Source of the DNA: a virus
Taxonomy: Duplodnaviria; Heunggongvirae; Uroviricota; Caudoviricetes
Virus record (IMG/VR): IMGVR_UViG_2799112923_000001
Reading direction: 5' to 3' (one strand)
DNA: 64,000 nt
Made by a program: the position numbers and the translations under genes. Below the pieces are notes generated by a model. It made no database searches. It was given only the letters and a program-made list of their open reading frames with translations, and was not told the DNA's origin. Positions 25,174-45,944 of this stretch are shown here, in pieces; the first letter of the stretch is position 1; every line of letters starts with the position of its first letter.

Positions 25174-26691
25174 ATGGCAAATTCTATTACTCAAACTACC
25201 AATGAAGTCATTGGTCTAACCAAACAAGAACTGGCGGAATTTTACAAGTCCGACAAGCAGGCGTATGATAACGCCTGGAATGAATGTAACTCAATGAGTG
25301 AACAACTCATTACATCAGCCGTAAAGTTGCTCCAATTTGAGCCGGCTATTCTCACATATTTTGGTTTGTGCGATTTGAAGCCTGTTCGTGACCCGGAGGT
25401 AACTCTCCGTCTTAATTGCCGTGGCACTGGTTCCGCTATCAATATGGAATACAACCCAATTTGGCTGAACAAGATTGAAGAATGCTCTATTCTTGCTTAC
25501 ATTATGTTTAGTGAATGTTTGCGTATCGCACTTCACCACATTACTACCCGTAAATGCTATCCCATTGAAATTTTCAAGAAGGCTAGTGATTACATTTCGT
25601 TTGCTGATAACCAGCGTTCTATTCTCAATACCCATAAGCCCGAAGTAACTCAAATGCTCCAGGAATTTCCTAGCAAGGCAAAATTCCGTCAAGAAACATC
25701 CAAAATCAAGTTTGACGAAGAACAGCATTGGTTCTTGGAAAAGGTTTTCTCTATGTTGATGGAAGTTGCCCAGTCGCAGCCACAATCCGGTAGTGGTCAA
25801 GGTCAAGGTGGACAAGGCCAGGGACAGGGACAAGGCCAAGGTAGCGGAAATGGTCAGGGTCAGGGTCAAGGACAGAATGGACAAGGTAATGGTGGTAATG
25901 GAAACCAAAACGGAAATGGTGGTGGTTCCGGTGGCAACCAACAGAAGAAGGGCGGAAGTGGTAATAATACCAAGGACGCCATCGGCGACTATTTTGACAA
26001 TTCCAAACAGGGTGCGGAAAAGGCAACAGAAGGTTGGGAAGAAAATACTCTCGTTGACCAGGAAATCCAGGAAATCACTCACCACATTGCTGAGAATGGT
26101 TCAACATGGGGTAACATTAGTGGTGGTTTGCTCCAGGCAATTCTTGCTGCTAATACTCCAAAATTTGACCCAAAGACGGTGCTAAAGAGATTCAAGGCCA
26201 ACACAGTTGATAAGTATACAGAAGATACTCGTATGCGACCAGATCGTAGAAAGGGATTTGATGTTCCAGGTAAGAAACACAAATATCGTTCTCGCATTTT
26301 GGTGGCTATTGACTGCTCCGGCTCTATGGCCGACGATGATGTTGAACGTGGTTGTGCCATTGTGAACAAATTCGTAAAACACGCTGATGTATCTTATTGC
26401 TTCTGGGATGGTGTTTGTGGTCCTTTCACCGAACAGAAACAAAAGAAAAACGAATTTAAGCTGATCGGTCGTGGCTGCACCAACCCGGAATGTGTGTTGG
26501 AAGCAATCAAGGAACGCAAGGCCAAATTTGATGGTATCATCTATTTCACCGATATGGGATTTGATTTCCCTCGTCCTGAACACATGGCGAACAAAATCTT
26601 TATGATTAGCACTCCTGGTACTGAATCATATATTCCTGAATGGGTGAAGTATCATCTTACCACCGAACAACTCTTCTCCATTGAAGAATAA
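25174..26691 (+). CDS. vWA-domain protein (DUF2201-like) with G/Q/N linker
   Basis: MIDAS AIDCSGS, GRGCT, IIYFTD; degenerate peptidase motif SECLRIALHH; adjacent to AAA. Confidence 0.85.
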   Translation: MANSITQTTNEVIGLTKQELAEFYKSDKQAYDNAWNECNSMSEQLITSAVKLLQFEPAILTYFGLCDLKPVRDPEVTLRLNCRGTGSAINMEYNPIWLNKIEECSILAYIMFSECLRIALHHITTRKCYPIEIFKKASDYISFADNQRSILNTHKPEVTQMLQEFPSKAKFRQETSKIKFDEEQHWFLEKVFSMLMEVAQSQPQSGSGQGQGGQGQGQGQGQGSGNGQGQGQGQNGQGNGGNGNQNGNGGGSGGNQQKKGGSGNNTKDAIGDYFDNSKQGAEKATEGWEENTLVDQEIQEITHHIAENGSTWGNISGGLLQAILAANTPKFDPKTVLKRFKANTVDKYTEDTRMRPDRRKGFDVPGKKHKYRSRILVAIDCSGSMADDDVERGCAIVNKFVKHADVSYCFWDGVCGPFTEQKQKKNEFKLIGRGCTNPECVLEAIKERKAKFDGIIYFTDMGFDFPRPEHMANKIFMISTPGTESYIPEWVKYHLTTEQLFSIEE

Positions 26692-28254: not shown

Positions 28255-28308
28255 CGAAAACAAAAAATGGTGGTAATCCACTGGTGCTGGAAGCACCTTA
28301 AAAACTTG

Positions 28309-28382
28309 GCCCTCTAATCCAAATCCAGTGATTGGACCGGACTGAAAATCCGAGAAGCTGCGGGCGGCACGCAGAGTGGGCA
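28309..28382 (+). tRNA. tRNA-Phe(GAA), atypical D and T loops
   Basis: CGGA-CTGAAAA-TCCG; T arm CTGCG-GGCGGCA-CGCAG. Confidence 0.7.
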
Positions 28383-28394
28383 CGAACAAATTAT

Positions 28395-28641: not shown

Positions 28642-28718
28642 CGGCAACTATCTCCTCGCTCTGATAAGGCGTTGAAAGAGTAAATGGTTACATGTAGGTT
28701 CAATCCCTATGTTGCCGA
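28642..28718 (+). tRNA. Rearranged tRNA-Ile(GAT)-like RNA
   Basis: Acceptor CGGCAAC/GTTGCCG, CGCT-CTGATAA-GGCG arm, T arm present, no D arm in normal position. Confidence 0.6.
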
Positions 28719-29501: not shown

Positions 29502-29574
29502 GGGCTTACATGTTCCTTGGAGGCGAATCTCCCTAGCACGGAGATTGTGATGGGTCCGATTCCCATTAGGTCCA
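29502..29574 (+). tRNA. tRNA-Ala(AGC)
   Basis: TCTCC-CTAGCAC-GGAGA, G3:U70, atypical D arm. Confidence 0.75.
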
Positions 29575-29583
29575 CGAAATCAT

Positions 29584-31920: not shown

Positions 31921-32354
31921 ATTCTACAGTTCTCAAAAATAAAAATTTTTGGATCAGTATAAACAAATTAACTATATTTGGCAATAAAATAGTAAGTCTA
32001 TTTCCTCGGAGCGAAGCTCAACTCAATGCAGTTATCGGTAGAGGGATAGCCATTTTGCCAAATAGTTCGGTGGCATCGGAATGTAAGAACATCGTAGTTT
32101 GGATTAGCAACCCAAACATATAGCCGCTTTGGTAGAATAGAATGTAGCTGGAGTACAGGAAAACCGACCCATAAGTCTATTCGTAAATCCCACAGAAGTT
32201 GATACTTATACTTTATACAAAAAAGAAGGTATCTCAAGTTCTAGTTGACCTAACTAGGCTTGAAGTATCCTCTTACCATTACCAAAAAAGAATTCATTAA
32301 AAATCATTTTTGAGTTTATCTCAAAAATGATTTTGTTTGCGTTAGCAAACATAC

Positions 32355-45836: not shown

Positions 45837-45910
45837 CCATCCTTAGTTCAACTGGTTAGAGCGCGGCTCTTATAAGGCTGAAGTTCTAGGTTCAAATCCT
45901 AGAGGGTGGA
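45837..45910 (+). tRNA. tRNA-Ile(TAT)
   Basis: CGGCT-CTTATAA-GGCTG. Confidence 0.85.
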
Positions 45911-45944
45911 CTACCGCTTTTCGCCATAGTACGGGTCAAAATGG

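What the first reader, a model, noticed from the sequence alone, without database searches (positions are those of the whole stretch)
28642..28718. tRNA-Ile(GAT)-like gene with the D-arm apparently moved 3' of the anticodon arm
Seen: perfect 7-bp acceptor, A73 and a normal T arm, but only about 8 nt separate the acceptor from the CGCT-CTGATAA-GGCG arm. After that arm comes GAAAGA plus a GTAA-ATGG-TTAC hairpin carrying a D-loop-like GG. It has normal tRNA length, the same CTA trailer as its neighbours, and is the only Ile-GAT candidate in the window, while leader 1 contains ATT/ATC codons. Inference: a functional tRNA of non-cloverleaf topology that standard finders would miss.
Basis: partly seen in the sequence, partly recalled or inferred. 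Interest (0 to 1): 0.75.

Follow-up and report, generated by a model that had tools for sequence, protein, structure and literature searches.

The report
Rewired-core isoleucine tRNA in phages
This 77-base gene in a phage tRNA array is very probably a working isoleucine tRNA whose D-loop and anticodon arm have swapped places. It belongs to a large, conserved family of isoleucine and arginine tRNAs that gene finders miss or misname, and I found no paper describing it.

Summary
Window 28642-28718 has a 7-bp acceptor stem, A73, a normal T arm and a CTGATAA anticodon loop, but no D arm in the usual place. ARAGORN misses it, and the Rfam tRNA model scores 23.2 bits against a cut-off of 29.

It is not a decayed gene. 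I collected 215 distinct 77-nt relatives from phage contigs and bacterial genomes.
- The acceptor, anticodon and T stems all covary.
- CTC (28652-54) pairs with GAG (28678-80) across the whole anticodon arm. All 215 sequences keep these three pairs, using five pair types at each of the two variable pairs.
That stretch behaves as a displaced D-loop: A14, an R15 that covaries with Y48, G18G19 and N20.

The scaffold carries only Ile (GAU, UAU, CAU) and Arg (UCU, CCU, ACG, UCG) anticodons, apart from a single UAC (Val). All 65 Arg-type sequences have A20, the ArgRS determinant. Arrays holding a rewired gene almost never hold the canonical tRNA with the same anticodon.

Cultured phages carry members, unannotated or misnamed: Kehishuvirus tikkala, Streptomyces phage Mildred21 and Vibrio crassostreae phages. 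Charging and decoding are inferred, not shown. First readers of this scan flagged the same layout in another genome.

The parts
28642..28648 (+). Acceptor stem, 5' strand (CGGCAAC). Includes C4 of the C4-G69 pair.
   Evidence: All 7 pairs covary across 111 relatives and 96.8% of cells are paired.
28649..28651 (+). Connector U8 A9 U10 (TAT).
   Evidence: Identical in all relatives. TATC was fixed by the extraction step and by one of the two search patterns, so this is weak evidence.
28652..28654 (+). CTC, the 5' strand of a 3-bp D-stem-like helix that encloses the anticodon arm.
   Evidence: Pairs with 28678-80. All 215 unique sequences keep all three pairs. Pair 12:38 is UA 107, CG 70, GC 31, AU 4, UG 3. 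Pair 13:37 is CG 178, GC 26, UA 5, AU 5, UG 1. RNAalifold predicts the helix independently.
28655..28655 (+). Unpaired C between the D-like helix and the anticodon stem, in the place of residue 26.
   Evidence: Identical in the relatives, but fixed by the extraction pattern.
28656..28672 (+). Anticodon arm TCGCT-CTGATAA-GGCGT. The anticodon GAT is at 28663-65, with U33, A37 and A38. The outermost position is a conserved U.U mismatch.
   Evidence: Pairs 17:29, 18:28 and 19:27 covary, and 16:30 is an invariant C-G.
28673..28677 (+). Linker TGAAA (family consensus WGAAA) from the anticodon stem to the 3' strand of the D-like helix.
   Evidence: AGAAA 83, TGAAA 24, CGAAA 5, with GAAA fixed by the search pattern. 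Variants with other linkers exist (L004, Vibrio phages).
28678..28680 (+). GAG, the 3' strand of the D-like helix.
   Evidence: See the entry for 28652-54.
28681..28693 (+). Displaced D-loop equivalent TAAATGGTTACAT. A14 and A15 are at 28682-83, G18G19 at 28686-87, U20 at 28688, and a Y48-like T at 28693 lies just before the T stem.
   Evidence: Column 42 covaries with column 52 like a Levitt pair: AU 180, GC 27, AC 5, GG 3. GG is near-invariant. Column 47 is U in 149 of 150 A35 (Ile-type) sequences and A in all 65 Arg-type sequences. The hairpin alternative is not supported.
28694..28710 (+). T arm GTAGG-TTCAATC-CCTAT.
   Evidence: 98.7% of cells are paired and 4 of the 5 pairs covary. T54, T55, C56 and A58 are conserved.
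28711..28718 (+). Acceptor stem 3' strand GTTGCCG plus discriminator A73. CCA is not encoded.
   Evidence: A73 is present in all 112 Ile-type unique sequences. Arg-type members have G, A or T at this position.

Best explanation
Window 28642-28718 encodes a functional elongator tRNA-Ile(GAU) whose core is re-threaded compared with the cloverleaf.

Proposed anatomy:
- After U8-A9-U10, the strand CTC pairs with GAG, 23 nt downstream.
- The complete anticodon arm sits inside this 3-bp D-stem-like helix, flanked by one C and a WGAAA linker.
- The D-loop residues (A14, R15, G18G19, U20) follow the helix and run straight into the T stem.
- In effect the D-loop block and the anticodon-arm block of a normal tRNA have changed places.

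Proposed mechanism (inferred):
- The anticodon stem still stacks on the D-like helix.
- The displaced D-loop still reaches the T-loop (G18G19 with U55/C56) and still forms the 15-48 pair, so an L-shape is kept.
- The host IleRS charges the RNA through A73, C4-G69, G34-A35-U36-A37-A38 and U20.
- The tRNA reads ATT and ATC, the phage's commonest Ile codons.

Shown here: the conserved secondary structure, the 15-48-type covariation, the isotype-specific D-loop residue, and replacement of the canonical isoacceptor in arrays.

Inferred only: the 3D fold, processing, charging and decoding.
For: 1. Family size. Exact-pattern scans of IMG/VR and of 185,579 species genomes found hundreds of copies. They include 215 distinct 77-mers.
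2. Covariation on alignment A2 (111 sequences). 93.7% of cells are paired against 68.5% in shuffles, and the covariation score is 0.663 against 0.177, with 0 of 500 shuffles reaching it. Sliding the partners by 1-3 columns drops pairing to 39-49%.
3. The new helix 11-13:37-39 is 100% paired with no filter applied to it, using five pair types at each variable pair. RNAalifold predicts it unaided. Pair 12:38 ranks 4th in a mutual-information scan of all column pairs, though the sequence set for that scan was pre-filtered on this helix.
4. Tertiary and identity signals. Column 42 pairs with column 52 as A-U in 180 and G-C in 27 sequences, like the R15-Y48 Levitt pair. Column 47, the position-20 equivalent, is A in all 65 C35 (Arg-type) sequences and U in 149 of 150 A35 sequences. 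A20, C35 and A/G73 are the bacterial ArgRS determinants; A73, C4-G69, U20 and the anticodon loop are IleRS determinants (review PMC9976931). The window copy has A73, C4-G69, GAU, A37, A38 and U20.
5. Replacement of canonical genes. Loci with a rewired UCU gene have a canonical UCU tRNA in 0 of 46 cases, against 157 of 264 other loci (p = 1e-16). For UAU the figures are 3 of 194 against 25 of 116 (p = 4e-9). For GAU it is 1 of 44.
6. Sister phages. Those with a capsid 78-80% identical carry a canonical tRNA-Ile(GAT) in the same array and no rewired gene. The window has the rewired gene and no canonical GAT.
7. Codon demand. ATT plus ATC make up 58.6 per 1000 codons in the window's ORFs.
Against: - No experimental evidence of transcription, end-processing, charging or ribosome use was available.
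- The 3D argument is reasoning from the textbook tRNA structure, not a model.
- One E. coli IleRS determinant is not matched: position 29-41 is G-C here, not C-G.
- The sequence collection was made with fixed-letter patterns. The invariance of TATC, C14, GAAA and GTA is therefore partly by construction, and more divergent relatives are under-sampled.
- Counts are of sequences, not independent evolutionary events.
- My literature search covered only the held open-access library.
Confidence: 0.78

Rival explanations
1. It is a conserved tRNA-like RNA that keeps tRNA ends and an anticodon-like loop but does not decode. It could be a decoy or inhibitor for host tRNA-cleaving defence nucleases or tRNA-modifying enzymes, or a regulatory RNA of the array.
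For: Phage tRNAs are known to counter tRNA-targeting defences (PMC11555353, seen). An altered core could serve evasion. No charging data exist. The scaffold is restricted to two isotypes.
Against: The isotype-specific synthetase determinants co-vary with the anticodon: A20 with C35 and A/G73, U20 with A35 and A73. The rewired gene replaces rather than accompanies the canonical isoacceptor. The acceptor stem, discriminator, T-loop and G18G19 are all kept. A decoy would not need this full set, and would leave the phage array without an Ile(GAU).
Confidence: 0.12
2. A D-armless tRNA has an unstructured 8-nt connector and an autonomous D-like hairpin GTAA-ATGG-TTAC in the variable position. That would be a mitochondrial-style loss of the D arm combined with a class-II-like extra arm.
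For: The four pairs can be drawn in the window copy. Single-sequence MFE folding draws a small hairpin there. Two of the four pairs tolerate only wobble-preserving changes.
Against: There is no change on both sides at any of its pairs. Pair 41:48 is broken in 26 of 111 sequences. G39 is needed for the invariant C11-G39 pair of the covarying helix. Column 42 covaries with column 52, not with column 47. RNAalifold leaves the stretch unpaired.
Confidence: 0.06
3. It is a decaying tRNA-Ile pseudogene left in the array after an internal rearrangement.
For: ARAGORN and Rfam fail to call it. Two other slots in the same array also hold irregular tRNA-like genes. Close relatives have a normal Ile gene.
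Against: The same 77-nt layout occurs in hundreds of unrelated phage contigs and in bacteria. Compensatory changes occur in every helix and the loops are conserved. A pseudogene would not show this.
Confidence: 0.02

Closest known systems
Canonical bacterial and phage tRNA-Ile(GAU), e.g. the genes at L001:12720-12795 and L002:12768-12843 in sister phages
   Same: 7-bp acceptor stem, A73, C4-G69, CUGAUAA anticodon loop, 5-bp T stem with a TTCRA loop, G18G19 and an R15-Y48 pair. Same slot type in a phage tRNA array and about the same length (76-77 nt).
   Different: The order of core segments differs. The anticodon arm lies inside the D-stem-like helix, and the D-loop follows it and joins the T stem directly. 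The helix has 3 bp instead of 4. There is no separate variable loop of the normal kind.
D-arm-lacking mitochondrial tRNAs (mammalian mt-tRNA-Ser(AGY), nematode mt-tRNAs; review PMC7609411)
   Same: There is no stem-loop between the acceptor and anticodon stems, and standard models miss them.
   Different: Those tRNAs have lost the D-loop elements and are shorter and more flexible. Here the D-stem pairing, A14, R15, G18G19 and N20 are all kept, only re-threaded. The setting is bacterial and phage translation, not organellar.
Class II tRNAs (Leu, Ser, bacterial Tyr) with a long variable arm
   Same: There is extra sequence between the anticodon arm and the T arm.
   Different: Class II tRNAs keep a normal D arm and their extra arm is a base-paired hairpin. 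Here the extra stretch is not a supported hairpin, and it carries D-loop residues.
allo-tRNAs and other 8/4 and 9/3 tRNAs of bacteria and phages (Mukai et al., PMC5389517)
   Same: They are non-canonical tRNAs found by metagenome mining, and some occur in phage tRNA clusters.
   Different: Those change how the 12 acceptor/T base pairs are divided but keep the cloverleaf order of arms. The family here keeps the 7/5 split and changes the arm order in the core.
Circularly permuted tRNA genes of the red alga Cyanidioschyzon merolae (from my own knowledge)
   Same: Segment order in the gene differs from the cloverleaf order.
   Different: In those genes the 3' half precedes the 5' half and processing restores a normal mature tRNA. 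Here both ends are in normal order, and the rearrangement would persist in the mature RNA.

Membership tests
Cloverleaf tRNA (Rfam RF00005; ARAGORN model) | 7-bp acceptor stem with an unpaired discriminator base | tested here: met
   CGGCAAC pairs with GTTGCCG, followed by A. All 7 pairs covary.
Cloverleaf tRNA (Rfam RF00005; ARAGORN model) | T arm: 5-bp stem and 7-nt loop with T54 T55 C56 R57 A58 | tested here: met
   GTAGG-TTCAATC-CCTAT. 98.7% of cells are paired and the loop letters are conserved.
Cloverleaf tRNA (Rfam RF00005; ARAGORN model) | Anticodon arm with a 7-nt loop, U33 and a purine at 37 | tested here: met
   The loop is CTGATAA. The four inner stem pairs are kept and three of them covary. 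The outermost position is a conserved U.U mismatch.
Cloverleaf tRNA (Rfam RF00005; ARAGORN model) | D arm (stem 10-13:22-25 closing the D-loop) lying between the acceptor and anticodon stems | tested here: not met
   The Rfam alignment replaces 15 model positions with 4 nt and inserts 18 nt after the anticodon arm. The paired strands enclose the anticodon arm instead.
Cloverleaf tRNA (Rfam RF00005; ARAGORN model) | Score at or above the curated threshold, or a call by a standard finder | tested here: not met
   23.2 bits against 29. No hit at gathering score. No ARAGORN call.
Cloverleaf tRNA (Rfam RF00005; ARAGORN model) | Core tertiary signatures: R15-Y48 pair and G18G19 | tested here: met
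   Columns 42:52 are AU 180, GC 27, other 8. GG is near-invariant. Both are present but in a displaced segment.
Cloverleaf tRNA (Rfam RF00005; ARAGORN model) | Aminoacylation and decoding on the ribosome | not testable with these tools
   Only indirect evidence: the identity elements and the replacement of canonical isoacceptors.
Bacterial IleRS substrate (identity set in PMC9976931) | A73, C4-G69, G34 A35 U36 A37 A38 | tested here: met
   All are present in the window copy.
Bacterial IleRS substrate (identity set in PMC9976931) | U12-A23 in the D stem and U20/U21 in the D-loop | tested here: inconclusive
   A U-A pair sits in the middle of the 3-bp helix and TT follows GG. Whether they occupy the canonical positions in space is unknown.
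Bacterial IleRS substrate (identity set in PMC9976931) | C29-G41 | tested here: not met
   The window copy has G-C at this pair (TCGCT/GGCGT). The pair varies across the family.
D-arm-lacking (mitochondrial-type) tRNA | Loss of the D stem and D-loop elements, replaced by a short connector | tested here: not met
   The D-stem-like helix and the A14, R15, G18G19 and N20 elements are retained.
Class II tRNA | Base-paired long variable arm together with a normal D arm | tested here: not met
   The hairpin 39-42:47-50 has no compensatory changes and is broken in 26 of 111 sequences. There is no normal D arm.

The most novel reading that the evidence does not exclude
A natural, widespread class of translationally active tRNAs is a topological isomer of the cloverleaf, with the D-loop and anticodon arm exchanged. 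It is carried by phages of at least three bacterial phyla (hosts Bacteroides, Streptomyces and Vibrio) and by some bacterial genomes. It is confined to Ile and Arg, and it has gone unrecognised because finders miss or misname it. The altered core may also give these tRNAs resistance to host enzymes that recognise the normal D arm.
Probability: 0.6. Interest if true: 0.93.

Novelty: new variant of a known kind. Interest (0 to 1): 0.88.

Why it matters
[quoted passage not shown] If these RNAs are charged and used, several things follow.
- The tRNA core tolerates a different strand threading in ordinary bacterial translation.
- That would be a natural experiment on what synthetases, RNase P, EF-Tu and the ribosome actually require.
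- It offers a possible scaffold for orthogonal tRNAs.
- It would correct phage and bacterial annotation. Ile and Arg tRNAs are currently missing, or are called Phe, Pro or "hypothetical protein".

The question is directly testable because cultured phages and bacterial isolates carry members.

Tried and rejected
- ARAGORN and Rfam at gathering score gave no call at the site.
- A wider Rfam scan at E <= 10 showed nothing here. Only a 91-nt scan gave a sub-threshold tRNA hit.
- No whole genome is held for the window.
- BLAST of the whole array against GenBank phages found only generic tRNA similarity.
- The first pattern gave two chance matches in tRNA-free loci, L005 and L006.
- About 100 of the 117 matches to the 16-base pattern were chance hits in coding DNA.
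- The closest relatives by capsid protein (L001, L002) carry a canonical Ile gene and no rewired one. They could not supply covariation.
- The pseudogene reading, the hairpin reading and the class-II or D-armless readings were rejected on covariation.
- I looked for the scaffold with G35 or U35 anticodons and found none. All 71 loci matching a pattern that excluded A35 carried Arg anticodons.
- I asked whether the Pedobacter nyackensis copy (CAU anticodon) is the cell's only tRNA-Ile2. It is not: canonical fMet, Met and Ile2-like genes are present.
- Seven literature searches and three papers read turned up no description of this layout.
- Searches failed through my own slips (a greedy regex, an unbalanced structure string, too many search words) and were redone where needed.
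- The set used for the mutual-information scan had been filtered for the 11-13:37-39 pairing. I therefore recounted that helix on an unfiltered set.

Full report
**What is at the site**

The window is a 35% G+C phage-like sequence with two tRNA clusters. ARAGORN tRNAs in it, and a cow-rumen-2 RNA is also present.

The stretch 28642-28718 fills one slot of the first array. It lies 11 nt after tRNA-Gln and 4 nt before tRNA-Leu, with the same GAACAAATTAT and CTAT spacers as its neighbours. In order it reads:
- CGGCAAC (acceptor 5' strand)
- TAT
- CTC
- C
- TCGCT-CTGATAA-GGCGT (anticodon arm)
- TGAAA
- GAG
- TAAATGGTTACAT
- GTAGG-TTCAATC-CCTAT (T arm)
- GTTGCCG (acceptor 3' strand)
- A (discriminator)

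ARAGORN does not call the site and Rfam has no hit at gathering score. In a 91-nt search the Rfam tRNA model reaches 23.2 bits against a cut-off of 29. It aligns the acceptor, anticodon and T arms, deletes the D arm and inserts 18 nt after the anticodon arm.

The window has no other GAT-anticodon tRNA; its only other Ile gene is TAT at 45837-45911.

**Relatives**

Phages whose capsid protein is 78-80% identical (L001, L002) have a normal tRNA-Ile(GAT) in the corresponding array and no copy of this element. Near relatives were therefore no help for covariation.

Exact-pattern scans of IMG/VR were productive. I extracted 111 distinct 77-nt sequences into alignment A2. Counting one 78-nt variant, the 112 unique sequences have anticodons TAT 87, GAT 22, CAT 1 and two odd ones.

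A pattern that excluded A at anticodon position 35 found 71 more loci holding 72 copies. Every one has an arginine anticodon: TCT, CCT, ACG or TCG.

A scan of one genome per prokaryotic species found 57 contigs, by my count about two thirds from Bacteroidota. Most of the copies lie in tRNA arrays. The contigs include isolates of Chryseolinea, Chryseosolibacter, Ohtaekwangia and Pedobacter. Each of the three isolate genomes I searched holds exactly one copy.

Cultured phages also carry members.
- **Kehishuvirus sp. 'tikkala'** (host Bacteroides cellulosilyticus). The copy lies in an unannotated 90-nt gap between tRNA-Trp and tRNA-Met.
- **crAss-like phage cr130_1**.
- **About a dozen Streptomyces phages.** The site is unannotated, overlaid by a protein call, or, in Mildred21, labelled tRNA-Phe(gaa). 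The loop CTTCGAA reads as Arg(UCG).
- **Vibrio crassostreae phages.** These have a variant with a 4-bp helix and a longer linker.

**Structure**

On A2 the proposed structure is 93.7% paired, against 68.5% in column shuffles. Its covariation score is 0.663 against 0.177, and 0 of 500 shuffles reach it. Sliding the 3' partners by one to three columns drops pairing to 39-49%. The acceptor stem (7 of 7 pairs), the anticodon stem (3 of 4 inner pairs) and the T stem (4 of 5 pairs) all show changes on both sides.

The new element is a 3-bp helix between columns 11-13 and 37-39. In the window this is CTC at 28652-54 with GAG at 28678-80.
- It spans the whole anticodon arm.
- I collected 215 unique 77-mers with filters on the acceptor, T and anticodon stems only. 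All 215 form all three pairs.
- Pair 12:38 is UA 107, CG 70, GC 31, AU 4, UG 3.
- Pair 13:37 is CG 178, GC 26, UA 5, AU 5, UG 1.
- The third pair, C11-G39, was fixed by my patterns. It does vary in looser variants: ACC/GGT, CCTA/TAGG and CGG/CCG.
- RNAalifold, given only the alignment, predicts the same four helices and leaves columns 40-52 unpaired.

A covariance model of this structure separates members from canonical tRNAs. Members score 79-91 bits and canonical tRNAs score 26 bits or less. The window copy scores 91.2 bits and is the only member in the window.

GTAA-ATGG-TTAC (columns 39-42 with 47-50) competes for G39.
- It shows no double change at any pair.
- Its third pair is broken in 26 of 111 sequences.

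The stretch looks like a D-loop that has been moved: T, A14, R15, two variable bases, G18G19, N20, and so on.

Two observations support this.
- Column 42 (R15-like) covaries with column 52, the base just before the T stem (Y48-like). The counts are A-U 180, G-C 27, A-C 5 and G-G 3. This is the pattern of the Levitt pair.
- The base after GG depends on the isotype. It is U in 149 of 150 A35 (Ile-type) sequences and A in all 65 Arg-type sequences. The discriminator is A in all Ile-type members and mostly G or A in Arg-type members.

According to the identity review PMC9976931, A20, C35, U/G36 and A/G73 define bacterial arginine identity. A73, C4-G69, U12-A23, G16, U20, U21, C29-G41 and the anticodon loop define isoleucine identity. 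The window copy has A73, C4-G69, G34-A35-U36-A37-A38, a central U-A pair in the helix, and TT after GG. It does not have C29-G41.

**Is it used as a tRNA?**

The evidence is indirect but consistent. I ran ARAGORN on all 312 loci that hold a rewired gene.
- **UCU.** A canonical UCU tRNA is present in 0 of 46 loci with a rewired UCU gene, against 157 of 264 other loci (p = 1e-16).
- **UAU.** A canonical UAU tRNA is present in 3 of 194 loci with a rewired UAU gene, against 25 of 116 others (p = 4e-9).
- **GAU.** A canonical GAU tRNA is present in 1 of 44 loci with a rewired GAU gene. The base rate is too low for significance here.
- **CCU and ACG.** No canonical gene is present in 20 and 5 loci respectively.

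The rewired gene therefore stands in for the canonical isoacceptor rather than accompanying it.

The window fits this pattern. It has a rewired GAU gene and a canonical UAU gene, while its sister phages have a canonical GAU gene. ATT plus ATC account for 58.6 per 1000 codons in the window's ORFs, and for 33 codons in the 505-aa ORF at 25174-26691, which I take to be the capsid gene, where ATA is absent. The leader ORF ahead of the array has three ATT and one ATC.

**How it probably works (inference)**

Written in standard numbering, a normal core runs:
- 8-9, then [10-13, D-loop 14-21], then [22-25, 26, anticodon arm 27-43, 44-45], then 46-48, then the T stem.

Here the order is:
- 8-9-U, then [a CNN strand, C, the anticodon arm, WGAAA], then [an NNG strand, U, a D-loop-like 14-21], then CA-Y48, then the T stem.

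The two bracketed blocks have changed places.

From textbook tRNA geometry I infer the following.
- The anticodon stem is continuous with the CNN strand, so it can still stack on the short helix.
- The strand that leaves the other side of the helix carries A14, R15 and G18G19 toward U8, Y48 and the T-loop.
- Residue 9 lies beside the D stem, and residues 21 and 48 lie close together. The new connections should therefore be short ones.

On this view the L-shape and the synthetase contact surfaces are kept, with a different threading. None of this was modelled, and I regard it as the weakest step.

Why only Ile and Arg is unexplained. Both synthetases read the D-loop "variable pocket". Both sets of anticodons include the rare-codon readers that AT-rich phages often carry. 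In 129 of the 194 loci with a rewired UAU gene, a canonical Arg(UCU) tRNA is also present.

**Comparison with what is known**

The element meets the acceptor, T-arm, anticodon-arm and tertiary-pair criteria of a tRNA. It fails the arm-order criterion and the curated score.
- It is not a D-armless mitochondrial-type tRNA, because the D elements are retained.
- It is not a class II tRNA, because the extra arm is not paired and there is no normal D arm.
- It is not an 8/4 or 9/3 allo-tRNA.
- It is not a permuted gene that matures to a cloverleaf.

Reviews of non-canonical tRNAs do not mention it (PMC7609411, PMC5389517). A 2024 paper opens by stating that all known bacterial tRNAs are cloverleaf (PMC11551756). 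Seven full-text searches found no description. That library lacks most subscription journals, so an earlier description cannot be excluded.

First-reader notes of this scan flagged the same layout in another genome (e1-5746346, e1-5746371). I treated them as leads only.

**Verdict**

The conserved fold and family membership are as secure as comparative analysis allows. Charging and decoding are likely but unproven.

I rate it a new variant of a known kind (tRNA) and of high interest. Cultured phages and bacterial isolates make it directly testable.

Noticed in passing
window 28306-28390: A second irregular slot in the same array. It is a Phe(GAA)-like gene with loop CTGAAAA, an acceptor stem with one U.U mismatch, and a T arm CTGCG-GGCGGCA-CGCAG that lacks the TTCRA motif. 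ARAGORN and Rfam both miss it. The ARAGORN-called Phe gene of sister phage L001 (12635-12708) also has an odd T loop, ATCGTTA.
   Followed up: partly
window 29502-29577: A third irregular slot. It is an Ala(AGC)-like gene with G3:U70, a normal T arm (ATGGG-TCCGATT-CCCAT) and no convincing D stem. ARAGORN and Rfam miss it. The sister phages have an ARAGORN-called Ala(agc).
   Followed up: partly
window 32091-32195: A strong match to the Rfam family cow-rumen-2 RNA (103 bits against a threshold of 66). This points to a rumen or gut phage origin for the window.
   Followed up: no
L446:595-670 (Streptomyces phage Mildred21 MF155946.1, 91367-91442): The feature annotated tRNA-Phe(gaa) is a rewired-scaffold gene whose loop CTTCGAA reads as Arg(UCG). 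In related Streptomyces phages the same site is unannotated or lies under an HNH endonuclease, endonuclease VII or hypothetical-protein call.
   Followed up: partly
L408:4553-4629, L433:4506-4582, L386:7210-7286: A possible second sub-type of rewired Ile(GAU), in Saprospiraceae-associated tRNA arrays. It has helix ACC/GGT, linker ACTYA and a D-loop-like AGYGGTTGARAAY. ARAGORN calls the L433 copy tRNA-Pro(agg). These came from a loose descriptor scan and were not tested for covariation.
   Followed up: no
L447:~593-672 (Vibrio phage 184E37.3a) and L004:15467-15546: Arg(UCU) variants of the scaffold with other geometry. The Vibrio phage copy has a 4-bp helix CCTA/TAGG and a linker of about 11 nt. 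The L004 copy has a 3-nt linker and a longer D-loop-like strand that contains TGAAAA. The family is therefore broader than my fixed-letter patterns.
   Followed up: partly
L441 (Pedobacter nyackensis), L439 (Chryseolinea sp. H1M3-3), L440 (Ohtaekwangia kribbensis): Bacterial isolates each carry one rewired gene on a large contig. The anticodon is CAU in Pedobacter, next to an extra canonical Ile(GAU) gene, and UAU in the Cytophagales genera, where the sequence is nearly identical across genera. I did not determine whether these sit in prophages or mobile tRNA arrays or are vertically inherited.
   Followed up: partly
IMG/VR loci with a rewired Ile(UAU) gene: A canonical tRNA-Arg(UCU) gene is present in 129 of the 194 loci that carry a rewired Ile(UAU) gene. 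These are the readers of AUA and AGA, the classic rare-codon pair.
   Followed up: no
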